Positions 10,543-37,185 of a DNA stretch of 64,000 nt are shown piece by piece; position 1 is the stretch's first letter, and the number at the start of each line of letters is the position of its first letter. The stretch lies in the NCBI GenBank assembly GCA_038227105.1, contig JBBRQB010000003.1, positions 1,054 through 65,053 of the forward strand, given 5' to 3'. The position numbers and the translations under genes were made by a program. The notes below the pieces were generated by a model that saw only the letters and a program-made list of their open reading frames with translations, ran no database searches and was not told the origin of the DNA. The stretch is from Candidatus Limnocylindria bacterium. GTDB taxonomy: Bacteria; Chloroflexota; Limnocylindria; P2-11E.

Positions 10543-10546
10543 CGCG

Positions 10547-21834: not shown

Positions 21835-22310
21835 ACGGGCTTTCCCACTCCATATTCAGCGAGCCGCTTGTTGATCCCGCGCGCGCGCGCCGGATCGTGT
21901 GCGGCGACGAACACCGTGTCGTCGCCGGCGATCGTCCCGATGACATCATTGAAAGCCGACGTGTCGAGCGCGATGGCCAGCGCGTTGGCCGTGCCCGGCG
22001 GCGTCTTCAGGATCACGAGGTTCCCCGCGACCGCACTCGACACCGGGTATTCGTCGCAGAACCTGCGGAGCCGCTCGAGACCGCCGGACAATGGCACCAC
22101 CGCCGGCGGGGCATACACGTGCGCTCCGTCGCGCGGCACCTTCACCAGGCCGATCTCGACGATATCGCGCGACACCGTCGCCTGCGTCGCAGCGAAGCCG
22201 GCCGCGCGCAGCGCGCGGACGACGTCCTGCTGCGTCGCGAGGCGCTTCTCGCTGACGAGACGCACGAGCGTCTGCTGGCGGTGCTGCTTGCGCGCGTTGA
22301 GCTCGTTCAT
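21831..22310 (-). CDS. argR: Arginine repressor
   Basis: N-terminal winged helix (SRDIVEIGL). C-terminal oligomerisation/arginine-binding motif GTIAGDDTVFV. Confidence 0.9.
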   Translation of the reverse strand: MNELNARKQHRQQTLVRLVSEKRLATQQDVVRALRAAGFAATQATVSRDIVEIGLVKVPRDGAHVYAPPAVVPLSGGLERLRRFCDEYPVSSAVAGNLVILKTPPGTANALAIALDTSAFNDVIGTIAGDDTVFVAAHDPARARGINKRLAEYGVGKPV

Positions 22311-23125
22311 GCGGCCTCGAACACGGTGCCGGCCGACCCGCCCGCGAGCAGGGCCTCGATGGCATCGATGTCGCGCGCCGAGACGATCGCCGCCCGGCAG
22401 CCCGCCTGCGCCGCGACGAGGCAGGCTTCGACCTTCGGCAGCATCCCGCCCTCGATGGTCCCGTCGTCGACGAGCGCTTTCGCGCCGTCGCGGTCGAGAT
22501 GCGCCAGCACCTTCCCGTCCTTGCCCCGCACGCCGGGGACGTCCGTGACGAACGCGAGCAGCCGCGCGGCGACGCTCGCCGCGATCGCGCCCGCTGCGGT
22601 GTCGCCGTTCACATTGAGGATCGTGCCGTCCGTGTCGAGCGCGGCCGGCGCGATGACCGGGACGCGAAGCGCCTCGAGCAGCTCTTCGAGCAGCGAGCTG
22701 TCGACCATCGACACCCGGCCGACGAGCCCGAGGGCCGCGTCCTCGCGCTCGGCGCGGAGCATGCCGCCGTCGACGCCGGAGAGCCCGGTCGCCGGCACGC
22801 CCTTCTTGATCAGCCGAGCGACAAGGGTCTTGTTCACGAGGCCGGCGAGCACGCCGAGGGCGACGTCGCGCGTGGGCTCATCGGTGACGCGGAGGCCGCG
22901 TTCGAACCGCGTCTCGAGGCCGAGCTTCTTGGACCACTCGCCGATGAGCGGGCCGCCGCCGTGCACCGCGATGACCGGCCGGCCGGCATCGTTGAGCGCC
23001 GCGACCAGATCGAGGGCCGCATCGTCCTCACCGGAGACGCTCCCTCCGATCTTGAGGACCACGACCTCGCGTGCGCGCTCGGTCGTGGGGGTACGGCCCG
23101 AAGGCCTAGGTGGTGTAGTCGGCAT
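22307..23125 (-). CDS. argB: Acetylglutamate kinase
   Basis: VLKIGGS...AVHGGGP... amino-acid kinase motifs. An alternative GTG start at 23062 would remove the 20-nt overlap with argJ. Confidence 0.85.
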   Translation of the reverse strand: MPTTPPRPSGRTPTTERAREVVVLKIGGSVSGEDDAALDLVAALNDAGRPVIAVHGGGPLIGEWSKKLGLETRFERGLRVTDEPTRDVALGVLAGLVNKTLVARLIKKGVPATGLSGVDGGMLRAEREDAALGLVGRVSMVDSSLLEELLEALRVPVIAPAALDTDGTILNVNGDTAAGAIAASVAARLLAFVTDVPGVRGKDGKVLAHLDRDGAKALVDDGTIEGGMLPKVEACLVAAQAGCRAAIVSARDIDAIEALLAGGSAGTVFEAA

Positions 23126-24299
23126 TGATCCGCACGTACTCGGCCGAGAGATCGGTGCCCCAGGCTCGGGCCGTCGAGTCGCCCAGACCGAGGTCCACCT
23201 CGATCACGATCTCCGGCATCGCGAAGAGCGCTCGCACCGTGTTCGCGTCGAACGCCCGGGGCGCACCGCTCGCATACACGGCGACGTCACCGATGCGCAC
23301 CGACGCCTTCGCCGCCTCGACCTTCGCCCCAGACCGGCCGGCCGCCGCGAGGATCCGGCCCCAGTTCGGGTCAGCTCCGTGGATCGCGGTCTTCACGAGG
23401 TTGGAGGTGGTGATCGTCCGGGCGGCCGCGCGCGCGTCCGACTCCGACGCCGCACCGACAAGCCGCACCTCGAACACCTTCGTCACGCCCTCGCCGTCGG
23501 CGACGACCGCTCGCGCGAGATCGAGACACACGGCCGTGAGGGCGTCCAGGAACTTCGATCCGTCGGACGTGCCGACGCGCACGCCGGACGCGCCGTTCGC
23601 CAGGACGAGGAGCGTGTCGTTCGTGCTCGTATCCCCATCCACCGATACCGCGTTGAACGTGTCGTCCGCGGCGGAGCGGAGCATCGGCCGCAGCGCGGCG
23701 CCGTCGATGTGGGCGTCCGTGGTCACGAAGGTCAGGAGCGTCGCCATGTTCGGATGGATCATCCCGGCGCCCTTCGCGATGCCGCCGATGCGGACGGTGC
23801 CGTCCGCGAGCACCACCTCGCGCTGCGCGACCTTCGGCCGGGTGTCGGTGGTCATGATGGCCCGCGAAACATCGTCCCAGCCGGACTCGGTCAGCGTGAT
23901 CCGGCCGATCGCGGGAATGATCCGATCCATCGGTAGCGGCACACCGATGACACCCGTGCTCGCGACCCCGATCTCGTGGGGGTCGACGTGCAGGAGCTCA
24001 GCGCCCGCGGTCGCCATCGCGACCGCGTCGCGCTCTCCCTGCGGGCCGGTGCACGCGTTCGCGTTGCCGGAGTTCACGACGACGCCGCGGAGATGCCCTT
24101 TGGCGAGATGCTTACGCGTGATGAGGCATGGCGCGGCGATCACCTGGTTGGTCGTGAAGACGCCCGCCGCGTGGACGTGCGCGGCCGTCGAAGCGATGAC
24201 CGCGACATCGAGCCTCGTCGCGTCCGCGTGCTTCACGCCGGCCGCGACCGCGCCGGCGACGAACCCCTTCGCGAAGGTGACGCCCTGTCCCTCGGTCAT
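23106..24299 (-). CDS. argJ: Bifunctional ornithine acetyltransferase / N-acetylglutamate synthase
   Basis: Autoprocessing site ATLLTFVTTDA. ATGA overlap with the argC stop. Confidence 0.9.
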   Translation of the reverse strand: MTEGQGVTFAKGFVAGAVAAGVKHADATRLDVAVIASTAAHVHAAGVFTTNQVIAAPCLITRKHLAKGHLRGVVVNSGNANACTGPQGERDAVAMATAGAELLHVDPHEIGVASTGVIGVPLPMDRIIPAIGRITLTESGWDDVSRAIMTTDTRPKVAQREVVLADGTVRIGGIAKGAGMIHPNMATLLTFVTTDAHIDGAALRPMLRSAADDTFNAVSVDGDTSTNDTLLVLANGASGVRVGTSDGSKFLDALTAVCLDLARAVVADGEGVTKVFEVRLVGAASESDARAAARTITTSNLVKTAIHGADPNWGRILAAAGRSGAKVEAAKASVRIGDVAVYASGAPRAFDANTVRALFAMPEIVIEVDLGLGDSTARAWGTDLSAEYVRINADYTT

Positions 24300-25318
24300 G
24301 GCCATAGCGGCATCGCCTCGAGACCGGTCGTCTCCGGCAGGCCGCACATCACGTTCAGGTTCTGGATCGCCTGTCCGGCTGCGCCCTTCACAAGGTTGTC
24401 GAGGACGCCGACCGCGACCAGACGCCGGTTGTCCTCGTCAACGACCGCGTGCACGAGGCACCAGTTGCTGCCGAGGGTCGCCTTGGTCGGCGGGAACGCG
24501 TTGACCCACCGGACGAACGGCTCGCCAACGTAGGTCGCGGCGTAGGCCTCAGCCACCTGCGCAGCGGTGACCCCTGCACGGAGCGGCGCGTAGCACGTCG
24601 CGATGAGTCCGCGCGTCATCGGGATGAGGTGCGGCGTGAACGTGAGCCCAGCCTCCGCGCGGCCGAGGACAGCGAGCCCTTGCGCGATCTCGGGCGTGTG
24701 ACGGTGCGTCGGCACGCCGTACGTGCGGACGCTCTCGTCGATGGTGCCGTAGAGGTACGCGTCGTCGACGATGTGGCCCGCGCCCGAGACGCCGGACTTG
24801 GCGTCGACGATCACGCCACTGTCGATGAGGCCGTGCTTCGCCGCCGGCGCGAGCGCCAGCAGCGACGCCGTCGGGTAGCAGCCGGGGTTGGCGACGACGC
24901 GCGCCTGGGGCAGGGCCGCACGCGCGAACTCCGTCAGTCCGTAGACCGACTCCGCGAGCAGCTGCGGCGCGGGATGGGTGTAGCCGTACCAGCGCTCGTA
25001 GGCTGCGGGGTCCTTCAGCCGGAAGTCCGAGCCGATGTCGATGATCCGTCGGCCTTCACTCAGCCACTGCGGCGCCTGCTTCGCGGCCTCACCCGCCGGG
25101 AGCGCCGTGAACACGACCTCCGCGTCCCCGATGCCGCTTCCGACGACGAGGTCGTCGGGCGCGTCGTGGAGGTGCGGAAGCACCGCGCGGAGCATCTCGC
25201 CCTGGCGCGAGCGCGCGACGGTCGCAACCAGCTTCACTCCACTGTGCCGCAGCAGCAGGCGCGCGAGCTCGCCACCGGCGTAGCCCGTGGCCCCGACGAT
25301 CGCGACGGTGATCGGCAT
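24296..25318 (-). CDS. argC: N-acetyl-gamma-glutamyl-phosphate reductase
   Basis: NAD-binding start IVGATGYAGGEL. Active-site NPGCYPTA. Confidence 0.95.
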   Translation of the reverse strand: MPITVAIVGATGYAGGELARLLLRHSGVKLVATVARSRQGEMLRAVLPHLHDAPDDLVVGSGIGDAEVVFTALPAGEAAKQAPQWLSEGRRIIDIGSDFRLKDPAAYERWYGYTHPAPQLLAESVYGLTEFARAALPQARVVANPGCYPTASLLALAPAAKHGLIDSGVIVDAKSGVSGAGHIVDDAYLYGTIDESVRTYGVPTHRHTPEIAQGLAVLGRAEAGLTFTPHLIPMTRGLIATCYAPLRAGVTAAQVAEAYAATYVGEPFVRWVNAFPPTKATLGSNWCLVHAVVDEDNRRLVAVGVLDNLVKGAAGQAIQNLNVMCGLPETTGLEAMPLWP

Positions 25319-26626: not shown

Positions 26627-27499
26627 CTACGTAGAACGCGCGGCATCCTCAGGCGTCACGCGCTCGAACCGAATGGCCTCCCCAGGCGCCGCCTGGGCGA
26701 CGAACCCGAGATCGGCCACGATGACGGTCGCGATGATCGGGTAACCGCCGGTCGTCCCATGGTCGGCGAGCAGGACGATCGGCGCGCCGCCGCGCGGCAC
26801 CTGGATCGCGCCGGTGACGAGACCGAAGCTCAGCAGCTCGCGCTCGGCCGGATCCATCGTGGGGCCCGCGAGACGCACGCCCATCCGATCGCTCTCTGGC
26901 AGCACCGTGAACGCCGACGCGAAGAACCGGTCGACGGTCCCCGTCGGGAACGATGCGTCGTGCGGTCCGGCGATCGCGCGGACCGGCGTCCCATACGCGG
27001 GCACGGCAGCACGCCGACCGGCGCCCTCCATCCCCGCACCCGATGCGCCGAGCTCGACCGCGTCCCCGGCGGCAAGCGCGCGAGGCACCGGACCCAGCGC
27101 GGCCGACAGGTACGTGGCACGCGAGCCGAGCACGGGATCGAGCGCGAGGCCGCCGCTCACGGCAACGTACGCGTAGCGGGTGCGGTCCGAGCCCTCCACG
27201 ACCACCTCTTCCCCTGCTCGCGCGAGGACACTGGTCCATCCGGGCACGCGCGCGCGTGTGCGGATCCGCACGTCACGACCAGTGGCCGCGACCACCCGCC
27301 GGTCATCGCAGCGGAACGCGAACGGCAATCCGATGATCTCGATGGCCGCCGCGTCGTCCGCACAGCCCGCGAGCGCGAGGGCAGCGGCGAAAGCCTGCGG
27401 GTCCGCCGGCCCGGACGGTGGGATCCCCGCCCGTGCGCCGCCGGCGCGCCCGCGGTCCTGCACGGTCGCGCGGAGCCCGGGCTTCGCGATCCGCATCAT
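26627..27499 (-). CDS. pxpC: 5-oxoprolinase subunit C (KipA / allophanate hydrolase subunit 2 family)
   Basis: Family-typical N-terminus GLRATVQDRGR. Operon context with pxpA/B. Confidence 0.8.
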   Translation of the reverse strand: MMRIAKPGLRATVQDRGRAGGARAGIPPSGPADPQAFAAALALAGCADDAAAIEIIGLPFAFRCDDRRVVAATGRDVRIRTRARVPGWTSVLARAGEEVVVEGSDRTRYAYVAVSGGLALDPVLGSRATYLSAALGPVPRALAAGDAVELGASGAGMEGAGRRAAVPAYGTPVRAIAGPHDASFPTGTVDRFFASAFTVLPESDRMGVRLAGPTMDPAERELLSFGLVTGAIQVPRGGAPIVLLADHGTTGGYPIIATVIVADLGFVAQAAPGEAIRFERVTPEDAARST

Positions 27500-28119
27500 C
27501 GCGGCACGAACCGCACGCGATCGCCCGCACCGATGAGCGCCGCAGGGTCGCGCCGGGGATCGAACATGACGAGCACTGTCCGTCCGATGAGGTGCCAGCC
27601 GCCCGGTGATTCGAACGGGTACACGAGGGTCTGACCATTCGCGACCCCGACCGAACCCGCCGGGACGCGTGCCCGCGGCGTGTCAAGGCGCGGCACGTCG
27701 ATCCGTGGGTCGAGCGTTCCGAGATATGCGAGCCCGGGCATGAAGCCCAGGAAGAACGCCTCGTACTCGCGCCCGGTGTGCGCGTCGATGAGCTCGCGCG
27801 GTGTCAGCCCGGACCGCGCGGCGGCGATCGCGAGGTCAGGACCGTCATAGCTGGTCGGGATCTCGATGAGGCGCCCGGCCGTCGCGGGCCGCGGCGCGGG
27901 CGGATGCGCCGCGAGCGCTTCGGCCACCGCGAGCGCGGCGGCGCGCGCGGTGGGAGGGTCGAATCGCAGCACGACCGACGCGTACGCCGGGATCGCCTCG
28001 CCGAGGCCTCGGGCCTCCCAGGCGTCCGCGATGGCGCGGGCGCGGGCGGCGATCCCAGGGTCGATGCGCTGCTCGAGCTCGAGGAGGAACGCGCGATCGC
28101 CGAACGCGCGAAGGCTCAT
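27496..28119 (-). CDS. pxpB: 5-oxoprolinase subunit B (KipI / allophanate hydrolase subunit 1 family)
   Basis: Cyclophilin-like KipI fold residues (GWHLIGRT). ATGA overlap with the pxpA stop. Confidence 0.8.
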   Translation of the reverse strand: MSLRAFGDRAFLLELEQRIDPGIAARARAIADAWEARGLGEAIPAYASVVLRFDPPTARAAALAVAEALAAHPPAPRPATAGRLIEIPTSYDGPDLAIAAARSGLTPRELIDAHTGREYEAFFLGFMPGLAYLGTLDPRIDVPRLDTPRARVPAGSVGVANGQTLVYPFESPGGWHLIGRTVLVMFDPRRDPAALIGAGDRVRFVPR

Positions 28120-28865
28120 GCCGCGCGCAGCCGCTCCACGCGGATGTCCGCCGCGACGAGCGCCGCCCGGGCGGCGTGCAGGATGTTCGGCGCCCCGGGC
28201 GTATCGCCGTGGACGCACAGCGTATCGACCGCCTGCTCCAGGAAGGTACCGTCGTGCGCGCGCACCCCGCCGTCGAGCATGAACGACACGGCCTGCGCCG
28301 CCGCGCGCGCGGGATCGGTGATCAGGGAGTGCTCGAGCGTGCGCAAGCGCAGCGCGCCGTTCGGCTCGTAAGCGCGATCGATGAACCCCTCACGAGCGAC
28401 GCGGATGCCCGCCGCGCGGCCGGCCCGCTCGAGCGCGGAACCTGGGAAGACGAACAGGATGAGGTCGCGCGCGCTCCGCTCCATCGCGCGCACGATCGCG
28501 GCCGCAACGACCTCGTCGTGCTGCGCCGCGTTGTAGAGCGCGCCATGCCCCTTCACGTGGGTGACCGGTACGCCTTCGGAGCCAGCGATGGCGGTCAGTG
28601 TCTCGATCTGCGCGACCAGATCGGCGACGAGCTCAGCGGCCGGAACGTCGAGCGGCTTGCGCCCGAAGTTCGCCGGGTCGCGGTAGCCGGGATGCGCACC
28701 GACGCCGACGCCGCTGGCCTTCGCGAGCACGATCGCCTCGCGCATCGATCGCTCGTCGCCGGCGTGTGCTCCGCAGGCGATGTTCGCCGACGTGATGAGC
28801 GGCATGATCGCGGCCTCGGTGCCGGCGCCTTCGCCGAGATCGGAGTTCAGGTCGATGGTCACCAC
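28116..28865 (-). CDS. pxpA: 5-oxoprolinase subunit A (LamB/YcsF family)
   Basis: IDLNSDLGEG...NIACGAHAGD signature. GTG start. Confidence 0.85.
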   Translation of the reverse strand: MVTIDLNSDLGEGAGTEAAIMPLITSANIACGAHAGDERSMREAIVLAKASGVGVGAHPGYRDPANFGRKPLDVPAAELVADLVAQIETLTAIAGSEGVPVTHVKGHGALYNAAQHDEVVAAAIVRAMERSARDLILFVFPGSALERAGRAAGIRVAREGFIDRAYEPNGALRLRTLEHSLITDPARAAAQAVSFMLDGGVRAHDGTFLEQAVDTLCVHGDTPGAPNILHAARAALVAADIRVERLRAA

Positions 28866-28874
28866 GGCAGGACG

Positions 28875-28915
28875 CTAGAGGAAAACGAGCGGCCCGGGGT
28901 TCATCCCCGGGCCGC
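28875..28915 (-). terminator. Intrinsic terminator of hppA: 11-bp GC stem (GCGGCCCGGGG/CCCCGGGCCGC), 5-nt loop, then TCGTTTTCC on the transcribed strand
   Basis: Perfect inverted repeat 28889-28899 / 28905-28915. T-tract downstream with respect to the minus-strand gene. Confidence 0.6.
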
Positions 28916-28967
28916 GAGAACCACCAGTCTTGAGCCCTGCCAGCGAGGCCGAAGGCCGAGCTTGCAG

Positions 28968-31121
28968 TTAAACGAACAAGGGGGCGAGAACGAGGGTGAT
29001 CGTCGCGAGGAGCTTGATGAGGACGTGCAGGCTCGGGCCGGCGGTGTCCTTGAACGGGTCGCCGACCGTGTCGCCGACGACCGCCGCCGCGTGCGCCAGG
29101 GTGCCCTTACCGAGGACGTTCCCGGCGTCATCCTTCAGCATGCCCGACTCGATGTACTTCTTGGCGTTGTCCCACGCGCCACCACCGTTGTTGAGGACGG
29201 TGGCGAGGATCACGCCGGCCATGGTGCCGACCATGAGCAGGGCCGCCTCGGCCTCCGCCTTCAGGAGCACGCCGACGATGATCGGGGTGATGATCGCGAT
29301 GACCCCCGGCGGGATCATGTTCCTGAGCGCGGACTGCGTGGTCAGGTCCACGACGCGCGCGTAGTCCGGGCGGGTCGTGCCGGCCATGATGCCGGGGTCC
29401 TCGCGGAACTGGCGGCGGACCTCTTCGATGATCGCGCTGGCGGACTTGCCGACCGCGCGGATCGCGAGCGACGAGAAGAAGTAGACGAGCATCGCGCCGA
29501 TGAGGCCGCCGATGAAGACGTCGACCTTGGCGAGGTTGACCGTATCGAACGGCTTGCCGGTGATCTGCGCGACCTTGTCCAGGTAGGCGGAGAACAGGAG
29601 GAACGCGGCAAGGGCCGCGGATGCGACCGCGTAGCCCTTGGTGAGCGCCTTCGTGGTGTTGCCGACCGCGTCGAGGCGGTCGGTGCGCTCGCGGGTCTCC
29701 TCGGACGCGCCGGACATCGAGGCGACGCCACCGGCGTTGTCGGTGATCGGGCCGAAGGTGTCCATCGCGAGGATGAACGCCGCGCTCATGAGCATGCCCA
29801 TGGTCGCGACGGCCGTGCCGTAGATGCCACCGTGCGGCAGGCCGGTCTCGGTGCCCCAGCGGTCACCGAGCCAGTGCGACGCGAACAGCGCGATGGCGAT
29901 CGTGATGACCGAGGAGAACGTGGTCTCGAAGCCGACCGCGAGGCCGGAGATGATCGTGGTCGCTGGGCCGGTCTTGGCCGCCTCAGCGATCTCCTTGACC
30001 GGACGCCACGAGCCCGACGTGTAGTACTGGGTGATGAAGACGAACGCGACGCTCGTCAGGATGCCGACGATGCCGGCGCCGGCGAAGTAGTACCAGCCGC
30101 CCTTCTCGTTGAGCATCAGGTAGGTCACGAGGATCATGGCGAGCGCCGAGAGGCTCGCGGTGATGTAGTAGCCGATGTTGAGCGAGCCCATCGGGTCGCG
30201 CGTCTCGCTGCCGCGCACGGTGAAGATGCCGATGACGCTCGCGACGAGGCCGAAGCCACGCACAACGAGCGGGAAGAGGATCCAGGCGACGTTGTGCGTG
30301 ACCGCGAAGATCGCGACGCCGAGGATCATCGCGCCGATGTTCTCGGCCGCGGTGGACTCGAAGAGGTCCGCGCCACGACCGGCGCAGTCACCGACGTTGT
30401 CGCCGACGAGGTCGGCGATGACGCCCGCGTTCCGCGGGTCGTCCTCGGGAATGCCCGCCTCGATCTTGCCGACGAGGTCGGATCCGACGTCTGCCGCTTT
30501 CGTGTAGATACCGCCGCCGAGCTGTGCGAACAGCGCGACGAACGACGCGCCGAAGCCGAAGCCGACGATCGTGAACGGTGCCTGCTCGGGGTGCGCGAAG
30601 CCGCCGTAGGCGACGAACATCACGAACACACCGATGAGCGAGAGACCGACGACGAGGATGCCGGAGACCGCTCCGCCACGGAGCGAGATGCGCAGTGCGT
30701 CCGCGACGCTGTGCTGAGCCGCCGCAGCCGTGCGGAGGTTGGACTTCACCGCGACGAACATGCCGACGATCCCTGAGGCCATCGAGCAGGCCGCGCCCAC
30801 GAGGAACGCGATGCCCGTCTTGATCGCGAGCTCCGCCGGGCTCGTGCCGGGTGCCGTTTCGAAGAAGTAGATGACGAGCGAGATGACGACGGTGCCGCCG
30901 ACCGCGAGGATCGCGATGGTGCGGTACTGGCGGTTGATGAAGGCGACCGCGCCTTCGTAGATGGCGCCGGCGACTTCCTGCATCGCGGGGGTGCCGGTGT
31001 CGGAGCCAAGAACGTCGTACGCGAAGTAGGCGGCCACCGCGACGGCGACCAGACCGGAGATCGGGACGATCCAGAGAAGCGGGTTGGCGGCAAAGGCGTC
31101 CAAGGGCGCGCGTCCTCCCAT
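28968..31121 (-). CDS. hppA: Membrane-bound H+-translocating pyrophosphatase, K+-independent type
   Basis: GDNVGDCAGRGADLFES motif. GNTTKA has Lys at the A/K position, which marks K+ independence. About 16 TM helices. Confidence 0.9.
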   Translation of the reverse strand: MGGRAPLDAFAANPLLWIVPISGLVAVAVAAYFAYDVLGSDTGTPAMQEVAGAIYEGAVAFINRQYRTIAILAVGGTVVISLVIYFFETAPGTSPAELAIKTGIAFLVGAACSMASGIVGMFVAVKSNLRTAAAAQHSVADALRISLRGGAVSGILVVGLSLIGVFVMFVAYGGFAHPEQAPFTIVGFGFGASFVALFAQLGGGIYTKAADVGSDLVGKIEAGIPEDDPRNAGVIADLVGDNVGDCAGRGADLFESTAAENIGAMILGVAIFAVTHNVAWILFPLVVRGFGLVASVIGIFTVRGSETRDPMGSLNIGYYITASLSALAMILVTYLMLNEKGGWYYFAGAGIVGILTSVAFVFITQYYTSGSWRPVKEIAEAAKTGPATTIISGLAVGFETTFSSVITIAIALFASHWLGDRWGTETGLPHGGIYGTAVATMGMLMSAAFILAMDTFGPITDNAGGVASMSGASEETRERTDRLDAVGNTTKALTKGYAVASAALAAFLLFSAYLDKVAQITGKPFDTVNLAKVDVFIGGLIGAMLVYFFSSLAIRAVGKSASAIIEEVRRQFREDPGIMAGTTRPDYARVVDLTTQSALRNMIPPGVIAIITPIIVGVLLKAEAEAALLMVGTMAGVILATVLNNGGGAWDNAKKYIESGMLKDDAGNVLGKGTLAHAAAVVGDTVGDPFKDTAGPSLHVLIKLLATITLVLAPLFV

Positions 31122-32008: not shown

Positions 32009-33451
32009 TCAGGCGCGCTTGCGCAGCCTGGCGGGCAGGATCTGCAGCTCCTCGCGGTACTTCGCGACGGTCCGGCGCGCGAGGATGATCCCGTGGTCGT
32101 TGCGTAGCTTTTCGACGATCTCCTGATCGGAGTGCGGATGGCCGCGGTCCTCGGCATCGATGATGTTCTTGATCACGTCCTTCGTGCCGAGCGAGGCGGT
32201 GAAGAACAGGGAGAACGGGACGACCTGGCCGGCAGGAAGCAGCACGTACTTGCCGGCGGTCGCGCGGCTCACGGTGGACTCGTGCATGCCGATCCGCTCG
32301 CCGACCTCGGCGCGCGTGAGCGGGCGCAGGCTCTGGATGCCCTTCTCGAGGAAGTCGTTCTGGCATTCGACGATGACCTGGGTGATGCGCGCCATCGTCT
32401 GGCGGCGCTGGTTGATGTTGTCGATGAAGAACTTGGCGCGCGTGACGTACTCGCGGATGTGCTGCTTCTCTTTGTCGTCCATCGTCGGCGCTTCGATCTT
32501 CGCACTTCGGGCGGCCTGGATCTGGCCGACGAGCTGGCGGTAGACGGGGTTGACCTTGAGCGAGAAGCGGCGTGACTCGATGACCTCGACCTCGAACGCG
32601 TTCTGCTCGTTCTTGACGATGATCACGTCGGGTCGCAGCGCGACCTGCCTACCCCCGATGCTGGTCCCGTCCGGTCCGGCCGCGAACGCCTGCGCCGGGT
32701 ACGGGTTCAGGTTGTCCTTGATGTAGTCCCACGCGGCCTGGACCTCTTCGCGCGAGATCCGCAACGCCTGCGCGACGTCACCGAACTTGTGCTCGCCGAG
32801 CGCGCGGAAGTGCTCGGCGACGATCGCCCGCGCGTGCGGCGGGACGGGCTCCCCCGCCTCCGCGAGATGCGTCATCTGGATGAGCAGGCACTCCTGGATG
32901 TCGCGCGCGCCGAGGCCCCAGGGCTCGATGGACTGGATCGTCCGCAGCACGCGGTCGGCGTCCTCGACCGATACCTGGCAGGCCTTGGCCGCGTCCTCGA
33001 GGGTGCCCTCGAGGTAGCCGTTGTCGTTGAGGTTCCCGATCAGGTACTCCGCGGTGAAATGGAGCCGTTTGGGCAGCAGCACTCGGACGTTCCAGGAGAG
33101 GTACTCCGCGAGGGTCTGCTCGGCTTCGGCCCGCACGATCGGGTCGAACTCGTCGCCCTCCTCCTCGTCACGCGCGAGGAGGCTGGTGCCTTCGAGCGGC
33201 TCGGCGTCGCTGTATTGCTCCGCGGCACCGGCCTTCCCGGCGCCGAAGCAGTTGAGGCACACGCGCCCGGTCAGCGGCAGGCCGCACAACGGGCAGACCT
33301 GCGCTTCCTCCAGATCGAGTGCCGGGTTCTCCTCGAGCTCCTGATTGATGACGTCCTGGAGCTCCAGCGAAGACAGCTGGAGGATGTAGTTGGCGGCGAT
33401 CTGCTTCGGTGTGACCTTGAGCGTCTGTTGTGGGAGGAGCCGCAGATCCAC
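32009..33451 (-). CDS. rpoN: RNA polymerase sigma-54 factor
   Basis: RpoN box ARRTVAKYRE. N-terminal Gln/Leu-rich region VDLRLLPQQTLKVTPKQ. GTG start at 33451 chosen to match the canonical N-terminus. Confidence 0.85.
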   Translation of the reverse strand: MDLRLLPQQTLKVTPKQIAANYILQLSSLELQDVINQELEENPALDLEEAQVCPLCGLPLTGRVCLNCFGAGKAGAAEQYSDAEPLEGTSLLARDEEEGDEFDPIVRAEAEQTLAEYLSWNVRVLLPKRLHFTAEYLIGNLNDNGYLEGTLEDAAKACQVSVEDADRVLRTIQSIEPWGLGARDIQECLLIQMTHLAEAGEPVPPHARAIVAEHFRALGEHKFGDVAQALRISREEVQAAWDYIKDNLNPYPAQAFAAGPDGTSIGGRQVALRPDVIIVKNEQNAFEVEVIESRRFSLKVNPVYRQLVGQIQAARSAKIEAPTMDDKEKQHIREYVTRAKFFIDNINQRRQTMARITQVIVECQNDFLEKGIQSLRPLTRAEVGERIGMHESTVSRATAGKYVLLPAGQVVPFSLFFTASLGTKDVIKNIIDAEDRGHPHSDQEIVEKLRNDHGIILARRTVAKYREELQILPARLRKRA

Positions 33452-33470
33452 GTGTCTTACGTTACCGCAG

Positions 33471-35246
33471 ATGGTCGTGACGGCTGAGCTTCCGCTCATC
33501 GCTGCCGCCGCGGGGCTGGCTCTCGTCGCGCTGTCGCTGTTCCTCGGGCCGCGCTCGGCGACTGCGCGGCGCATCGCCGTGTTCTTCGCGGTGGCCGCGA
33601 CGGTGACGCCGCTGCTCCTCGCCGCGCTGATCGACCCGGCGCATGCGGCGGGACAGGCGCTCTGGGAGTGGTCGGCGGCGGGCGGACCGACCGTCCAAGC
33701 GAGCTACCGGTTCGACGGGATCGCCGCGGTGGCTGTCGCGGTCGGCGCGGCGTACGGCGGCGCGGGGCTCTTCGGCGCCGCTCGGGCGGCAGAACGTCAT
33801 CCCCTGCTGCCCGGAGCGATCCTCGCGCTGAGCCTCGTGTTCGTCGCGCTCGCGGTGACAGAGGATCTCATCGCCGGAGCCGTCGTCCTCGGACTGCTCG
33901 CCGCCATCACCATCCTCGCAACGCTCGCCGTCTCACCGCTGCCGGCATCGACGCGGCTGGCGGCGTACCTCGCCGTCGGGATCCAGTTCTTCGTGCTCGC
34001 GGCCCTGCTCATCTCGCGCCATGGCGGTGCCTCGTTCCGGTTCGACACGATCGTCCCTGGAGCGATCAGCCCGGGCTCCATCCTCGCCGCCTCCATCGGC
34101 GCGGCATTGTTCGCCGGCCTCTATCCATTCATCCCCTGGCGTTTCCGGTCGCAGCTTCGCGCACCGTCGCTCGAGCGTCTGCGCGGGGTGGTGACGATGC
34201 CCGCGGGCGTCGCGGCGACGCTGCTGCTGCTCCGCTTGCTGGGTACCACCCGCGATGACGTCGCGGCCATCGCACTGCCGGACCTCCCGCTCGCTCTTCG
34301 TCTGGCGATCGCGCTCCTCGCGATCGCGACCGCCGGCTGGATCGGATACCGGCGGCGCGGGCTGCCACCGCGCGCAACGTCGATCGCGGGGATCATCGTG
34401 CTGCTGCTGTTCGCGTATCCCGCCCTGCACTGGTCGCACCTGATCCTTGTCGCGGCCCTGCTCAGCGTCCTCTACGCGGCGGTCGTGTCGCTCGGGCTTC
34501 CCGAGCAGTGGGACGTGGTGCGCTACGACGTCACCCTCAGTGCGTTCTGGATCGCCCTCGCGATCGGGACACCGGCGGCGATCGCGGGTGGCCTTTTCAT
34601 CCTCGTCGCGGACGCGGCGACCGCGCTCGCGGAGGCGGTGTGGGAGCCTCCGCACGGGGGCTTCGTGCTCGTCATCGCGGGGTCCGCTGCCACCGTGACC
34701 GGACTGGTCGTCATCTTCGCAGGGTCGCTCGAGGCGACGGACCGCGGCGCACAGGGCCTCGCGATCGCCGGCCTGCTCACGATCGCGGCGCTCGTGCTGG
34801 TGCACGTCGGGCGACGCATCGACCTCACCGAGGTGCCGCTCTACCTCGACGGTCTCTCGGCGGCCGTCGCCGCCGGTACCTGCGCCCTCCTCGGGCTCCT
34901 CGTGTCGGTACCCGTGTACCAGGGCGTGACCGCGACGTTCGGCCGGCCGTTCGCGCCCGCGATCGCGACGCCCCTGGGATTCCCCGCCGCGATCGCGATC
35001 GCGACGCTGCTCGTGATCGTCGCGCGCTCGCTGCGACCATTCGTGCCGGAGCTCGCGCCGTTCGCGGAGCGGCTGCGCTCGTTCATCGCGATCGCGGATC
35101 CGGTGCCCGCGGGACACGCCGCCTTCGGCGCGCTCGACGCGGTCGCGTCGCGGACCACGTCGACGTTCAACCTGTTCGAACAGCGCGCCGGCATCTGGCT
35201 CGCGACCATCCTCATCATCGCGCTGCTCGTCTGGTCCGTCCGCTAA
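33471..35246 (+). CDS. NuoL/MrpA-like proton-conducting-membrane-transporter family protein (degenerate, lysine-free)
   Basis: N-terminal domain QALWEWSAAGGPTVQASYRFDGIAAV matches NuoL PLWTWMSVGDF...LDGLS. At least 14 TM helices. No Lys at all, and no GWEG Glu. Confidence 0.6.
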   Translation: MVVTAELPLIAAAAGLALVALSLFLGPRSATARRIAVFFAVAATVTPLLLAALIDPAHAAGQALWEWSAAGGPTVQASYRFDGIAAVAVAVGAAYGGAGLFGAARAAERHPLLPGAILALSLVFVALAVTEDLIAGAVVLGLLAAITILATLAVSPLPASTRLAAYLAVGIQFFVLAALLISRHGGASFRFDTIVPGAISPGSILAASIGAALFAGLYPFIPWRFRSQLRAPSLERLRGVVTMPAGVAATLLLLRLLGTTRDDVAAIALPDLPLALRLAIALLAIATAGWIGYRRRGLPPRATSIAGIIVLLLFAYPALHWSHLILVAALLSVLYAAVVSLGLPEQWDVVRYDVTLSAFWIALAIGTPAAIAGGLFILVADAATALAEAVWEPPHGGFVLVIAGSAATVTGLVVIFAGSLEATDRGAQGLAIAGLLTIAALVLVHVGRRIDLTEVPLYLDGLSAAVAAGTCALLGLLVSVPVYQGVTATFGRPFAPAIATPLGFPAAIAIATLLVIVARSLRPFVPELAPFAERLRSFIAIADPVPAGHAAFGALDAVASRTTSTFNLFEQRAGIWLATILIIALLVWSVR

Positions 35247-35830
35247 TGGTCTACCTCGGGCTCATCGCGCTCACAACGCTTCTGGCGAACGGCGCCACGC
35301 GCCTCCGCTATATCGCCGTCGCGTTCGTTGGCGTCGCGGCGATCGCATCCCTCATCGTGTCCGCGTCAGCGAGCGCGCCACAGGTCGCGGTGACCGCCGC
35401 GGCTGGCCTCGCGTCGGCCGGGATCCTGTTCGTCGCGGCGCGCGACCGCAGCTATGGCGAGGATCCGGGATGGCGCCTGTGGCTGGGCACGTTCACCGCC
35501 GCGATCGTCACGCCGATCGCCTACGCATCGTTCCGCACGATCACCGGCGAGACCGCGACGCTGCCCCTGTTCCAGGACGGCTCCGGGATCATCGCCGAGG
35601 TCTCGGGCGTGTGGCTCCTCTCGAGCGGCGTCGCCGTGATGCTCACCGCACGGAGCGCGGTCCGGGTCTCGCTCGCGGCCCTCCTGCTCGTCACCGGCGT
35701 GCAAATCCTCGCGCGCCTGGTTCCCGAACAGCACCTCGCCATCACGCTCGCGATCTCGTGGCTCGAGGTCGTCGTCGCGCTCGCGGGCGCGTTCCTGATC
35801 ATCAACGAGCGCGCCGTGCTCGACGGATGA
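35246..35830 (+). CDS. Small polytopic membrane protein, NuoJ/NuoK (MrpC)-like
   Basis: TAATG overlap with the upstream gene. N-terminus resembles NuoJ. C-terminus ISWLEVVVALAGAFLI resembles the NuoK TM3 Glu helix. Confidence 0.45.
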   Translation: MVYLGLIALTTLLANGATRLRYIAVAFVGVAAIASLIVSASASAPQVAVTAAAGLASAGILFVAARDRSYGEDPGWRLWLGTFTAAIVTPIAYASFRTITGETATLPLFQDGSGIIAEVSGVWLLSSGVAVMLTARSAVRVSLAALLLVTGVQILARLVPEQHLAITLAISWLEVVVALAGAFLIINERAVLDG

Positions 35831-37185
35831 CCGTCGCCGCGCCCGCGATCCTGCTCGCGATCGCCGCCGTCGCGTCCTTCGGCCTGCGCAAGCGGCTCGC
35901 CGAGGTCGCCTGGCTCAGCCTGGCCGCACTGTTCGTGGCCTTCGTCCTGGTGAGCGTCACGCCCGTCGACACGACCGCGCGGCTGTTCGACCTCGATCTC
36001 CGCGCGACCGCTCTCGGCCGGCTCGCCGGACTGTTCGTCCTCCTGATCGTTGCGGCGCTGCTGCTCGACGTGTATGTGAGCGAGCCGGCGTACAACTTCT
36101 TCCCGACCGCGCTCGCCGTCGGGAGCGTGTCGCTCGCAGCGCTCGTCGTGACCTCGCCGGTGATCATCTTCGCGCTGGTGCTGGCCGGCCTCTTGTTCCC
36201 CGTCGGGTCCTTCACCTACCAGGTCCATCGCAACCGCAGCGTCGAGGCGGCGGTCCGGCACTTCTCCTTCGTCGTCCTGGGCGGCTGCCTCGGCCTCGGC
36301 GCGCTGGCGCTCGCCGCGAGCCTGCCGAAGGATCAGCCCGCCAACACGCTCGTCCTGCTGGTGGTCCTCCTGTTCGTCGCCTTCGCGTTGATGCTCGCCG
36401 CCATCCCGTTCCACAGCCATGCCGCACTGCTCGCCGGCGAGGCGCCCGCGGCCGCGCTCGCGCTGTACTTCGGGGTCCTCGTCCCGATCACGTTCATTGC
36501 GTTCGCCGAGATCCTCGCCGGGAGCGGCCTCCTGCCCGCGATCGTGCAGGTCGCAAAGGTCCAGGACCTCCTGCTGGGCATCGGGCTCACCTCGGCACTC
36601 GGCGGCGCGCTGCTCGCGGCAGGCGCGAACGATCTTCGCCGGCTCGTCGTCTACGCGGTGATCTCGAACCTCGGGTCGGCGCTCGTCGGCATTGCGACAT
36701 TGTCCGGACCGGGGATCATCGGCGGCATCGCGATCGCTCTCGTCACCGGCGCCTGCGCCACCCAGCAGCTCCTCGCGGCCGGCACGCTCGAGCGCCGCGC
36801 GGCCGGCGCACGTCCGAACGTGACGCACGCCCCGCTCGCGGCGGGTGCGTTCATCGCCGGCGGCATCGCGATGATCGGCGCACCGCCGCTGGTGAGCTTC
36901 CCCGGGCACTTCTTCGTCGACCTCATCGCCTATTCCGTATCGGGGGCCGCCGGCAGCGTCCTCGTCGCGGCCGCGGTGCTCCTCCTCATCGCGCAGCTGC
37001 GCGCGGGTGTCAGCCTTTTCGCGGGATCGCCCGAAGGCTGGCGCATCGAGCCACGGCCCGTGGCGGGTATCCTCGGCGGGATCATCTTCCTGGCGCTGCT
37101 CGCGGGAGGCATCACGCCCGACGCGTTCCTGCAGCCGATCGCGGCGTTCGCGGACGAGTTCCTGAAGGCGCTGCGCCCCCTCTAG
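35827..37185 (+). CDS. NuoN/MrpD-like antiporter-family membrane protein (degenerate)
   Basis: PF00361-like VVYAVISNLGSALVGIA (compare AYSSISHLGY) and AAIPFHSH (compare LVPFHLW). The TM5 Glu and TM7/TM12 Lys are replaced by Ala, Met or His. ATGA overlap. Confidence 0.6.
   Translation: MTVAAPAILLAIAAVASFGLRKRLAEVAWLSLAALFVAFVLVSVTPVDTTARLFDLDLRATALGRLAGLFVLLIVAALLLDVYVSEPAYNFFPTALAVGSVSLAALVVTSPVIIFALVLAGLLFPVGSFTYQVHRNRSVEAAVRHFSFVVLGGCLGLGALALAASLPKDQPANTLVLLVVLLFVAFALMLAAIPFHSHAALLAGEAPAAALALYFGVLVPITFIAFAEILAGSGLLPAIVQVAKVQDLLLGIGLTSALGGALLAAGANDLRRLVVYAVISNLGSALVGIATLSGPGIIGGIAIALVTGACATQQLLAAGTLERRAAGARPNVTHAPLAAGAFIAGGIAMIGAPPLVSFPGHFFVDLIAYSVSGAAGSVLVAAAVLLLIAQLRAGVSLFAGSPEGWRIEPRPVAGILGGIIFLALLAGGITPDAFLQPIAAFADEFLKALRPL

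What the first reader, a model, noticed from the sequence alone, without database searches (positions are those of the whole stretch)
33471..37185. Stand-alone three-gene antiporter-like module (NuoL-like, NuoJ/K-like, NuoN-like) whose proton-path Lys/Glu residues are all substituted
Three overlapping genes (TAATG and ATGA coupling) encode about 590-, 194- and 452-aa polytopic proteins. They are homologous to complex I / Mrp antiporter-type subunits (NuoL N-terminal domain; PF00361-like VVYAVISNLG and AAIPFH helices). No other Nuo/Mrp/hydrogenase/DabA partners are nearby. The first protein contains zero lysines. The NuoN-like protein has Ala, Met or His where the TM5 Glu and TM7/TM12 Lys normally sit. 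This looks like a degenerate, possibly non-pumping membrane scaffold or a transporter of different specificity. It is not a described complex.
Basis: partly seen in the sequence, partly recalled or inferred. Interest (0 to 1): 0.7.

Follow-up and report, generated by a model that had tools for sequence, protein, structure and literature searches.

The report
Charge-stripped three-gene antiporter-like membrane module
A three-gene operon found throughout one group of uncultured soil and lake bacteria (Limnocylindria) encodes two proteins built like the proton-pumping subunits of respiratory complex I and Mrp antiporters; they have lost almost all the charged residues those pumps need yet are still kept by selection, so they probably do something other than ordinary proton pumping.

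Summary
Three translationally coupled genes (33471-35246, 35246-35830, 35827-37185, + strand) encode polytopic proteins of 591, 194 and 452 aa.

- **g3 (third gene):** a true but very divergent PF00361 (NuoM/MrpD-type) protein.
- **g2 (middle gene):** no detectable relative. The "NuoJ/K-like" label is unsupported.

In the window, the canonical TM5 Glu, TM7 Lys, TM8 Lys and TM10/TM11 His of g3 are Ala, Met, Phe, Asn and Thr, and the TM12 site is His. In g1 the TM7 Lys is Phe and TM5 and TM12b hold no charge. Two caveats apply: 24 of 55 orthologues keep the TM7 Lys in g3, and the TM12 site is always His or Arg.

The module and its flanks are conserved in 75 Limnocylindria species, and dN/dS is 0.09-0.28. 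No Nuo, Mrp, hydrogenase or DabA partner lies in the 64 kb.

Best reading: a lineage-specific, Mrp/complex-I-derived mini-complex that no longer pumps protons by the canonical relay. Its function is unknown. It is a new variant of a known kind, of moderate interest.

The parts
33471..35246 (+). g1: 591-aa NuoL/MrpA-type antiporter-like subunit, recognisable by fold only; public annotation is 'hypothetical protein'
   Evidence: - ORF and 0 Lys.
- No Pfam or NCBIfam hit.
- AF2 pLDDT 80, pTM 0.85.
- Foldseek: strongest hits are mostly NuoL/ND5 chains, E about 1e-7, prob 1.0.
- dN/dS 0.16-0.28.
33663..33722 (+). g1 residues 65-84: beta-hairpin and 'WEWSAAGG...RFDGIA' motif of the antiporter-like N-terminal region
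   Evidence: - AF2 strands at residues 65-68 and 74-77.
- hhalign pairs this stretch with E. coli NuoL 'WTWMSVGD...LDGLS'.
- W65, W67, S68, G71, G72, P73, D82 and G83 are invariant.
34095..34142 (+). g1 residues 209-224: the TM7 break motif GAALFAGLYPF(I/V)PW(R). F214 sits where NuoL has the TM7 Lys (K229)
   Evidence: - This is the most conserved stretch of g1 (64 orthologues; F214 in 62 of 64).
- It aligns with NuoL GAVGKSAQLPLQTW.
- The AF2 helix ends at residue 215, followed by a low-confidence break at 219-231.
34428..34439 (+). g1 residues 320-323: HWSH, probable counterpart of the NuoL/MrpA TM11 His pair
   Evidence: - H320 in 59 of 64 orthologues and H323 in 45 of 64.
- hhalign pairs this with NuoL 'FHLMTHAFFK'.
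- The alignment itself is weak (E about 0.03).
35055..35240 (+). g1 residues 529-590: C-terminal amphipathic helix followed by a terminal TM anchor, resembling a short lateral helix HL plus last TM of NuoL/MrpA
   Evidence: - AF2 helices at 529-541 and 545-590, pLDDT only 56-66.
- About 70-80 more residues align to L/A-type chains (453-460) than to M/N-type chains (360-386).
- R534, D543, E570, R572, W576 and W588 are conserved.
35246..35830 (+). g2: 194-aa, roughly 7-helix small membrane subunit of unknown family, translationally coupled to both neighbours
   Evidence: - ORF with TAATG and ATGA overlaps.
- 612 homologues, all 'hypothetical' and all from Limnocylindria.
- No Pfam hits in 24 orthologues and no PDB sequence hit.
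- Invariant YGE(D/E)xGWRxW loop; R136 and R140; Q/E153 and E/Q174 in the last two helices.
- dN/dS 0.09-0.22.
35827..37185 (+). g3: 452-aa NuoM/MrpD-type antiporter-like subunit (PF00361), very divergent
   Evidence: - Pfam PF00361 at 35.5 bits, E 8e-9.
- NCBIfam NuoM at 48 bits against a cut-off of 264.
- PDB profile hits to NuoM, Nqo13, NdhD, MbhH and MrpD.
- hhalign 98% against the set of E. coli antiporter-like subunits.
- dN/dS 0.09-0.17.
36184..36186 (+). g3 A120: position of the TM5 Glu (Nqo13 E123)
   Evidence: - Mapped through the alignment to 4he8_M.
- Orthologues: L40, V5, A4, F3, I2, P1; never acidic.
36391..36414 (+). g3 M189 to H196: M189 is at the position of the TM7 Lys (Nqo13 K204), followed by the retained PFH motif
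   Evidence: - Anchored on P194/H196 = Nqo13 P209/H211.
- Position 189 is K in 24, L in 19 and M in 12 of 55 orthologues.
- H196 is invariant.
36469..36471 (+). g3 F215: position of the TM8 Lys (Nqo13 K235)
   Evidence: Y214-F215 aligns with Y234-K235. Phe in 55 of 55 orthologues.
36667..36669 (+). g3 N281: position of the TM10 His (Nqo13 H292), within VYAVISNLG
   Evidence: Mapped through the alignment. Asn in 54 of 55 orthologues.
36907..36909 (+). g3 H361: position of the TM12 Glu/Lys (Nqo13 E377), within PPLVSFPGHFF
   Evidence: Mapped through the alignment. His in 38 and Arg in 17 of 55 orthologues; position 365 is E/D in 51 of 55.

Best explanation
g1, g2 and g3 form one translationally coupled operon. 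It most likely encodes a lineage-specific, three-subunit inner-membrane complex descended from the MrpA-(MrpB/C)-MrpD / NuoL-NuoM part of Mrp antiporters and complex I.

Components:
- g1 is the L/MrpA-type subunit. It has the broken TM7 and TM12 and a short C-terminal lateral helix plus anchor that could clamp a neighbouring subunit.
- g3 is the M/MrpD-type subunit.
- g2 is a small, roughly 7-helix subunit of unresolved ancestry.

Shown:
- The fold or family of g1 and g3.
- Operon structure and class-wide conservation.
- Purifying selection on all three genes.
- The fold-defining motifs are kept (PFH, EAP, the TM12 PPLxxFPG break, DxRR, and the TM7 break in g1).
- The ionisable residues of the central charged axis are replaced by apolar or non-titratable residues. 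In g3: Glu-TM5, Lys-TM8, His-TM10 and His-TM11 in every orthologue, and Lys-TM7 in 31 of 55. In g1: the helices carrying Glu-TM5, Lys-TM7 and Lys-TM12.

Inferred: the complex no longer translocates protons by the canonical Lys/Glu relay. It is kept for another membrane role, most likely structural or scaffolding, possibly alongside an energy-converting complex encoded elsewhere. The residual His/Arg at TM12 then serves structure rather than transport.
For: Identity:
- Pfam PF00361 for g3.
- PDB profile hits to NuoM, Nqo13, NdhD and MrpD; hhalign 98%.
- g1 AF2 pTM 0.85.
- In Foldseek the strongest hits are mostly NuoL/ND5 chains.
- g1 motif anchors WxW...DG and G.A..PF.PW.

One unit:
- TAATG and ATGA overlaps.
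- g1-g2-g3 are contiguous in every one of 75 species-level loci that reaches far enough.
- The most distant members keep the order: L077 (g1 30% identical) and the P0367 contig.

Functional genes:
- dN/dS 0.09-0.28, close to the housekeeping neighbours at 0.03-0.17.
- g3 is exactly 452 aa in almost all of the 120 best hits.

Dismantled relay:
- Residue mapping.
- Predicted TM5 (133-154) and TM12b (397-419) of g1 contain no charged residue before E419, and g1 orthologues hold 0-2 Lys, none conserved.
- The TM7 Lys of g3 was lost in at least three lineages. Within-clade dN/dS is not higher in the Lys-less clades (0.14 and 0.09) than in the Lys-bearing one (0.28). Selection therefore does not depend on that Lys.

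Why these residues define the mechanism: PMC8165549 lists two half-channels, broken TM7 and TM12, and a charged axis E/K/K/H/K as highly conserved features, with helix HL holding one or two subunits in MBH, MBS and Mrp.
Against: - No experiment and no complex model exist. Assembly of the three proteins is inferred from operon structure only.
- g2 is unassigned.
- An ionisable or cationic residue persists at the TM12 site of g3 (His/Arg) and near the TM12 break of g1 (H/R395). 44% of g3 orthologues keep the TM7 Lys. H196 and H198 of g3 and HWSH of g1 are conserved. A re-wired ion path is therefore not excluded.
- g1 residue mapping rests on a statistically weak alignment (hhalign E 0.02-0.03) plus AF2 secondary structure. 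I could not inspect model coordinates.
- I could not check whether these genomes carry canonical nuo or mrp operons elsewhere.
- NG86 dS values are partly saturated in the most divergent clade.
Confidence: 0.5

Rival explanations
1. The module is still an active secondary transporter or ion channel (H+, Na+, K+ or another ion) of the Mrp lineage. It would use a re-wired polar network (His/Arg at TM12, His in TM7b and TM11, Asp/Glu near helix ends, and Lys-TM7 where present) instead of the canonical Lys/Glu axis.
For: - The TM12 site of g3 is always His or Arg, with an acidic residue one helical turn later in 51 of 55 orthologues.
- g1 has H/R395 at the TM12 break plus HWSH.
- The broken-helix motifs that create half-channels are the best-conserved parts.
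- Lys-TM7 is kept in 24 of 55 orthologues.
- Purifying selection is strong.
Against: - The connecting residues of the axis (TM8 Lys -> Phe, TM10 His -> Asn, TM11 His -> Thr, TM5 Glu -> Leu/Ala) are apolar or non-titratable in all orthologues.
- Arg is a poor proton carrier (general knowledge).
- Lys-TM7 was lost repeatedly without relaxed selection.
- MrpE, F, G and recognisable MrpB/C/NuoK-type subunits are absent. These subunits are thought to hold the Na+ path (general knowledge plus PMC8165549; absence shown).
Confidence: 0.25
2. The module is not autonomous. It would be an accessory or replacement distal membrane module that docks onto a complex I, Mrp or membrane-bound hydrogenase-type enzyme encoded elsewhere in the genome.
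For: - L-type plus M-type is exactly the composition of the distal module of complex I and the MrpA-MrpD pair (general knowledge).
- g1 has a lateral-helix-like C-terminus of the kind used to tie subunits together.
Against: - No partner gene lies in the 64 kb window or within the flanks of up to 8-10 kb held for the 75 related loci. The same housekeeping neighbours recur instead.
- A pump module without a charged axis could not transmit the electrostatic wave that couples canonical modules (inference from PMC8165549).
Confidence: 0.15
3. The hydrophobic cores have been repurposed as a conduit for a non-ionic small molecule such as a gas. This would be analogous to the CO2 channel proposed for NdhF3 in cyanobacterial NDH-1MS.
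For: - Wholesale replacement of charged by apolar residues along the former hydrophilic axis.
- The NdhF3 precedent is from my own knowledge and was not checked here.
Against: - No catalytic partner (CupA, DabA or a carbonic anhydrase) lies nearby.
- There is no direct evidence for a tunnel, because model coordinates could not be analysed.
Confidence: 0.05
4. The ORFs are decaying pseudogenes or spurious high-GC ORFs.
For: High-GC genomes produce long spurious ORFs; many are visible on other frames here. g1 and g2 have no family annotation.
Against: - Intact genes of the same length occur in 75 species down to 30-46% identity.
- dN/dS is 0.09-0.28.
- GC3 is 0.83-0.88.
- g1 gives a confident antiporter-like fold.
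Confidence: 0.01

Closest known systems
Mrp (CPA3) multisubunit cation/H+ antiporter: MrpA-MrpB-MrpC-MrpD part
   Same: - Gene order is large L-type subunit, then small subunit(s), then M/D-type subunit.
- g3 hits MrpD in NCBIfam and PDB.
- Broken TM7 and TM12 motifs, and a short lateral-helix-like C-terminus in g1.
   Different: - Only three genes. MrpE, F and G are absent, and no recognisable MrpB/MrpC domains or MrpA C-terminal domain are found.
- The charged axis is largely gone.
- g1 and g2 are not detectable by Mrp HMMs.
Distal membrane module of respiratory complex I (NuoL/ND5 + NuoM/ND4)
   Same: - In Foldseek the strongest hits for g1 are mostly NuoL/ND5 chains.
- g3 is closest to NuoM/Nqo13/NdhD by sequence.
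- It is an L-type plus M-type pair with a lateral helix.
   Different: - No NuoN, H, J, K or A, and no redox arm, in the window.
- TM5 Glu, TM8 Lys and the TM10/TM11 His are replaced in every orthologue, TM7 Lys in 31 of 55, and the TM12 Lys/Glu site is His or Arg.
- The lateral helix is far shorter than in NuoL.
Stand-alone antiporter-like proteins with a soluble partner (DabB-DabA / MpsA-MpsB CO2-hydration systems)
   Same: A PF00361-type protein operating outside complex I, Mrp and hydrogenases, in a small operon.
   Different: - No DabA/DUF2309-type gene lies in the operon or flanks.
- There are two antiporter-like subunits plus a small membrane subunit, rather than one.
HyfE-type small membrane subunit of hydrogenase-4 (N-terminal helices plus a NuoK-like C-terminal three-helix unit)
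   Same: - g2 aligns colinearly with E. coli HyfE over 161 columns.
- Matching anchors are AAR[D/N], R136/R140 against QRNILR, G151, and E174 against LVEIG.
- Size and helix count are similar.
   Different: - The alignment is not significant (E 0.22, probability 0.3%).
- No PF00420 or PF00499 hit in any of 24 g2 orthologues.
- This is a lead only.

Membership tests
Pfam PF00361 (Proton_antipo_M) - g3 | Score above the Pfam gathering threshold | tested here: met
   35.5 bits against a cut-off of 21.5, E 8e-9, covering profile positions 75-291 of 294. All 120 listed homologues carry PF00361.
Pfam PF00361 / PF00662 - g1 | Significant HMM match to the antiporter-like core or to the NuoL N-terminal domain | tested here: not met
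   - No Pfam or NCBIfam hit at E <= 1.
- Among 20 homologues, only one PF00662 hit, at E 0.8.
- Profile against PDB: nothing.
- hhalign to g3: nothing.
- hhalign to E. coli NuoL and HyfB: E 0.008-0.03.
- An exhaustive HMM search of 1.84 billion representatives returned only 74 family members.
Antiporter-like subunit fold (NuoL/M/N, MrpA/D) - g1 | 14-TM core with the characteristic fold; the L/A-type adds extra C-terminal helices | tested here: met
   - AF2 pLDDT 80, pTM 0.85.
- Foldseek prob 1.0 and TM-score 0.5-0.57 to NuoL.
Functional proton-translocating antiporter-like subunit (type I path, as defined in PMC8165549) | Charged axis: TM5 Glu, TM7 Lys, TM8 Lys, TM10/TM11 His, TM12 Lys/Glu | tested here: not met
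   - g3 in the window has A120, M189, F215, N281, T307 and H361.
- Family-wide, TM5 is never acidic, TM8 is always Phe and TM10 is Asn. TM7 is Lys in only 24 of 55. TM12 is His or Arg.
- In g1, TM7 Lys -> F214 (62 of 64), TM5 Glu -> G141/A, and predicted TM5 and TM12b carry no charge before E419.
Functional proton-translocating antiporter-like subunit | Discontinuous TM7 and TM12 helices | tested here: met
   - g3 keeps the PFH (194-196) and PPLVSFPG (353-360) break motifs, which are invariant.
- In the g1 AF2 model the helix ends at 215 with a break at 219-231, and the WxPP(H/R) break lies at 391-396 between helices 368-390 and 397-419.
- For g3 this rests on sequence homology only; no model was built.
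Mrp antiporter system (CPA3) | Six or seven subunits, MrpA-G, including MrpE, F, G and the NuoK-like MrpC | tested here: not met
   - The operon has exactly three genes in 75 loci, flanked by opposite-strand rpoN and, in most loci, ndk.
- g2 has no PF00420, PF04039 or other Mrp-family hit in 24 orthologues.
Respiratory complex I / NDH-1 / membrane-bound hydrogenase | NuoH/B/D-type Q-module or hydrogenase module, and NuoA/J/K-type subunits, encoded with the antiporter-like subunits | tested here: not met
   - None among the 30 larger ORFs of the 64 kb window scanned with Pfam.
- The flanks of up to 8-10 kb in related loci carry the same housekeeping genes as the window.
- Whether such operons exist elsewhere in these genomes could not be tested with the tools left.
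DAB / MpsAB CO2-hydration system | DabA (DUF2309-type) partner adjacent to the PF00361 protein | tested here: not met
   No such gene lies in the operon or window.
NuoJ (PF00499) / NuoK-MrpC (PF00420) - g2 | HMM or fold match; membrane-embedded carboxylates in TM2 and TM3 of the NuoK unit | tested here: inconclusive
   - No HMM hit and no PDB sequence hit.
- hhalign to NuoJ, NuoK and HyfE gives E 0.09-0.39.
- Q/E153 and E/Q174 in the last two helices are suggestive only.

The most novel reading that the evidence does not exclude
This is a previously unrecognised three-subunit membrane complex, conserved across the class Limnocylindria. It descends from the Mrp/complex I antiporter module but has dismantled the charged proton-relay axis in both large subunits. 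It is maintained for a new role that does not involve proton pumping: a natural 'pseudo-antiporter' acting as a scaffold, a conformational module or a conduit.
Probability: 0.45. Interest if true: 0.7.

Novelty: new variant of a known kind. Interest (0 to 1): 0.55.

Why it matters
Antiporter-like subunits are the ion-moving engines of complex I, Mrp, NDH-1 and membrane-bound hydrogenases, and their Lys/Glu/His axis is treated as near-universal (PMC8165549). This module is a naturally occurring L-type/M-type pair with three useful properties:
- It keeps the fold, the broken helices and a lateral-helix-like clamp.
- It has replaced most of the axis.
- It has stayed under purifying selection across a whole bacterial class, with the last canonical Lys (TM7 of g3) lost several times independently.

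If the complex is inactive as a pump, it shows that the fold has a second, selectable function. If it still moves ions, it would revise what is considered the minimal residue requirement.

The case also shows that a 591-aa antiporter-like protein can be invisible to Pfam and NCBIfam, annotated as 'hypothetical', and recoverable only by structure prediction. The practical limit is that the hosts are uncultured, so testing needs heterologous expression.

Tried and rejected
1. **A nuo operon at 12-25 kb (- strand).** The gene sizes suggested one, but Pfam shows argC/J/B/R/G/H, a GNAT, a gamma-glutamyltranspeptidase, a PBP and M16 peptidases. Rejected.
2. **Sequence homology of g1 to anything.** Tried Pfam, NCBIfam, a PDB profile search, hhalign to g3 and to E. 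coli NuoL/M/N/HyfB/D/F/HycC, and an exhaustive HMM search of 1.84 billion representatives. Only family members or non-significant alignments came back. The fold search settled the question.
4. **Zero lysines as independent evidence.** Downgraded. Some neighbouring soluble genes reach K/(K+R) = 0.08, and all 75 loci are 67-74% GC, so GC bias cannot be separated from selection.
5. **Promoters upstream of g1.** The sigma-54 consensus occurs no more often than chance, and no sigma-70-like site was found.
6. **Functional inference from neighbours (rpoN, H+-PPase, ndk).** Rejected as evidence, because the entire roughly 12 kb block is syntenic throughout the class.
7. **Literature.** Searches on Limnocylindria respiration and on orphan or degenerate PF00361 proteins found no description of this module and no statement about canonical complex I in the class.
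8. **The afdb50 fold library** was unavailable.

Full report
**1. What is in the sequence**

Three + strand ORFs occupy 33471-37185:
- g1: 33471-35246, ATG start, 591 aa.
- g2: 35246-35830, 194 aa.
- g3: 35827-37185, 452 aa.

The junctions are TAATG (the g1 stop overlaps the g2 start by one base) and ATGA (the g2 stop overlaps the g3 start by four bases), which is typical of translational coupling. The window is about 70% GC, and the three frames have GC3 of 0.83-0.88.

g1 and g2 contain no lysine and g3 contains four.

**2. The genes are real and constrained**

Each protein has hundreds of homologues of the same length in public data. Where named, they come from Candidatus Limnocylindria (Chloroflexota). 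g1 and g2 are annotated only as 'hypothetical protein'.

A scan of one genome per species found 75 loci. In every locus that extends far enough, g1, g2 and g3 are contiguous and in the same order. The surrounding block is also conserved: H+-pyrophosphatase (-), sigma-54 rpoN (-), then g1 g2 g3 (+), then ndk (-), M16 peptidase (-) and hemB (-). Five loci labelled as other phyla carry the same block and are probably mis-binned contigs.

Selection was measured in two ways:
- Nei-Gojobori dN/dS against four orthologues is 0.16-0.28 (g1), 0.09-0.22 (g2) and 0.09-0.17 (g3). The neighbouring housekeeping genes give 0.03-0.17.
- The pseudogene or spurious-ORF explanation is therefore excluded.

**3. 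What the proteins are**

*g3.* It passes the Pfam gathering threshold for PF00361 (35.5 bits against 21.5). It hits NuoM and MnhD models in NCBIfam far below their cut-offs. A profile of the family finds NuoM, Nqo13, NdhD, MbhH and MrpD in the PDB at E 4e-9 to 3e-4. hhalign against E. coli NuoL/M/N/HyfB/D/F/HycC gives 98% probability. g3 is a genuine but very divergent M/D-type antiporter-like subunit.

*g1.* No sequence method recognises it:
- No Pfam or NCBIfam hit.
- PF00662 appears in 1 of 20 homologues, at E 0.8.
- No PDB hit with a family profile.
- No similarity to g3 by hhalign.
- An exhaustive HMM search of 1.84 billion cluster representatives returned only 74 proteins, about ten of them full-length clusters. 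None was a canonical PF00361 protein.

Foldseek independently puts mostly NuoL/ND5 chains among its strongest hits (E about 1e-7, probability 1.0, TM-score 0.5-0.57).

A statistically weak hhalign alignment to E. coli NuoL (E 0.02-0.03) is nevertheless colinear and hits recognisable anchors:
- WEWSAAGG...RFDGIA against WTWMSVGD...LDGLS, which is the beta-hairpin. AF2 also predicts strands there.
- GAALFAGLYPFIPW against GAVGKSAQLPLQTW, which is the TM7 break.
- HWSH against HLMTH in TM11.

The model ends with a helix at 529-541 and a 46-residue helix at 545-590. The first half of the long helix is amphipathic and the last 17 residues are hydrophobic, resembling a short lateral helix plus terminal anchor. 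Confidence is only moderate there (pLDDT 56-66).

*g2.* It has about seven predicted helices and highly conserved motifs (YGE(D/E)xGWRxW, R136, R140, N187-E-R), but no detectable relative:
- No Pfam hits in 24 orthologues at E <= 10.
- Nothing in two PDB profile searches.
- hhalign to NuoJ, NuoK, NuoH, HyfC, HyfE and HycD gives E 0.09-0.43.

The one lead is a colinear, non-significant alignment to E. coli HyfE over 161 columns. Matching anchors are AAR[D/N], R136/R140 against QRNILR, G151, and E174 against LVEIG. Two positions in the last two helices toggle between Glu and Gln (153: Q46/E18; 174: E39/Q25). This fits a NuoK/MrpC-like C-terminal unit but does not establish one.

**4. The charged residues**

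PMC8165549 summarises the defining elements of the proton path in antiporter-like subunits. They are two half-channels, broken TM7 and TM12, and a charged axis (Glu-TM5, Lys-TM7, Lys-TM8, His, Lys/Glu-TM12) that is highly conserved across complex I, NDH, MBH, MBS and Mrp.

Mapping g3 through the HMM alignment to T. thermophilus Nqo13, with counts over 55 orthologues:

| Canonical site (Nqo13) | g3 in the window | Across orthologues |
|---|---|---|
| TM5 Glu (E123) | A120 | L/V/A/F/I/P, never acidic |
| TM7 Lys (K204) | M189 | K 24, L 19, M 12 |
| TM8 Lys (K235) | F215 | F 55/55 |
| TM10 His (H292) | N281 | N 54/55 |
| TM11 His | T307 | T, nearly invariant |
| TM12 Glu/Lys (E377) | H361 | H 38, R 17 |

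By contrast, the structural motifs are invariant: PFH, EAP, Y214, D/E269-x-RR, ISNLG and PPLVSFPG.

In g1 the position of the TM7 Lys is F214 (62 of 64), and the TM5 Glu position is G141 or Ala. The predicted TM5 (133-154) and TM12b (397-419) helices have no charged residue before E419. The orthologues hold only 0-2 lysines, none of them conserved. Most conserved charged residues of g1 lie at helix ends: D132, R162, E235/R238, R255, H320, D424, H445/R448/R449. H/R395 sits in the TM12 break.

- The TM12 site keeps a His or Arg.
- The TM7 Lys of g3 survives in 44% of species.

A neighbour-joining tree of the concatenated proteins was rooted on the most divergent member, L077 (g1 30% and g3 46% identical, same gene order). 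It places the Lys-bearing lineages deep and paraphyletic, with the Lys-less clades nested among them. That implies at least three independent losses (a crude tree).

Within-clade dN/dS for g3 is 0.14 and 0.09 in the two large Lys-less clades, against 0.28 in the Lys-bearing assemblage. The last value is inflated by dS saturation. Losing the Lys was therefore not followed by relaxed constraint.

The zero-Lys count itself is weak evidence. K/(K+R) is 0.02 in g1 and g2 orthologues against 0.26 in the window overall, but 0.08 in some neighbouring genes, and all loci are 67-74% GC.

**5. Context**

Thirty larger ORFs of the window were scanned with Pfam, and none is a Nuo, Mrp, hydrogenase or DabA/Cup gene. 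A run of minus-strand genes at 12-25 kb that looked like a nuo operon by size turned out to be an arginine biosynthesis cluster with peptidases and a PBP.

Because the whole neighbourhood is syntenic across the class, adjacency to rpoN and the H+-PPase carries no functional information. No sigma-54 or sigma-70 consensus stands out upstream of g1. The probable rpoN start (GTG at 33451) and the g1 start are only about 19 bp apart, so the two promoters must lie inside each other's coding regions.

I could not determine whether these genomes also carry canonical nuo or mrp operons.

**6. Interpretation**

The anatomy best fits a reduced derivative of the MrpA-(MrpB/C)-MrpD block, or equivalently of the NuoL-NuoM distal module. 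It consists of an L/A-type subunit with a short clamp helix, a small subunit, and an M/D-type subunit, all made from one coupled transcript.

What selection preserves is the fold, the helix breaks, the loops and the helix-end salt-bridge residues. What it has let go is the mid-membrane titratable axis. I therefore think the complex most likely no longer pumps protons by the canonical mechanism and has a different membrane role, structural or scaffolding, possibly beside another complex.

My confidence:
- About 0.85 for the identity and the dismantled relay.
- About 0.4 for the non-transporting function.
- 0.5 is given as the overall confidence.

The main rival, at 0.25, is a still-active transporter with a re-wired His/Arg/Asp network. 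An add-on module for a complex encoded elsewhere gets 0.15, and a gas or apolar conduit like the one proposed for NdhF3 gets 0.05.

**7. Novelty and score**

I found no description of this module. It is not a member of the Mrp, complex I, hydrogenase or DAB systems by their defining features, but it clearly descends from the same antiporter-like stock. It is a new variant of a known kind.

It would interest complex I and Mrp specialists as a natural 'axis-less' L/M pair. It is also an example of an antiporter-like protein invisible to HMM annotation. The function is unknown and the hosts are uncultured. Interest 0.55.

Noticed in passing
window 32009-33574 (-) and 33471 (+): The sigma-54 gene rpoN (Pfam AID+CBD+DBD) is transcribed divergently from g1. 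Only about 19 bp separate the likely GTG start at 33451 from the g1 ATG, and the longest rpoN ORF would even overlap the 5' end of g1. The arrangement is conserved in nearly all related loci that reach upstream and in the most divergent member, L077. Both promoters must lie inside the other gene.
   Followed up: partly
L024, L025, L039, L034, L056: Contigs from MAGs labelled Acidiferrales, Saccharimonadales (two), Udaeobacter and Bathyarchaeia carry the same Limnocylindria synteny block (PPase-rpoN-g1-g2-g3-ndk...) at 45-70% g1 identity. They are very likely binning contamination in those public MAGs.
   Followed up: no
window 8938-10611 (-): A class I lysyl-tRNA synthetase (PF01921, E 4.5e-74). 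To my knowledge this is the less common type of LysRS in bacteria.
   Followed up: no
window 19133-25318 (-): A compact arginine biosynthesis cluster: argC-like semialdehyde dehydrogenase, ArgJ, amino-acid kinase, ArgR repressor, argininosuccinate synthase and lyase. The repressor gene is embedded in the middle. By gene sizes the cluster mimics a nuo operon.
   Followed up: yes
window 26627-31121 (-): Genes of the 5-oxoprolinase type (LamB/YcsF PxpA and a CT_A_B carboxyltransferase subunit) lie next to a 717-aa H+-pyrophosphatase. The same neighbours appear beside the most distant g1 relative, P0367.
   Followed up: partly
window 606-3950 (+): A 1114-aa protein with a double zinc ribbon, an adenylate/guanylate cyclase domain and an AAA_16 ATPase domain. 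It holds 10 Lys against 119 Arg, showing how strong the Lys-to-Arg bias is in this genome.
   Followed up: no
g3 orthologues (P0001-P0120; L001-L077): g3 is exactly 452 aa in almost all of the 120 best database hits, down to 68% identity. That is unusually strict length conservation for a polytopic protein.
   Followed up: no
window 35246-35830 (g2), residues 153 and 174: Two positions in the last two predicted helices of g2 toggle only between Glu and Gln across 64 orthologues (Q46/E18 and E39/Q25). This recalls the two membrane carboxylates of NuoK/MrpC, but no homology could be shown.
   Followed up: partly
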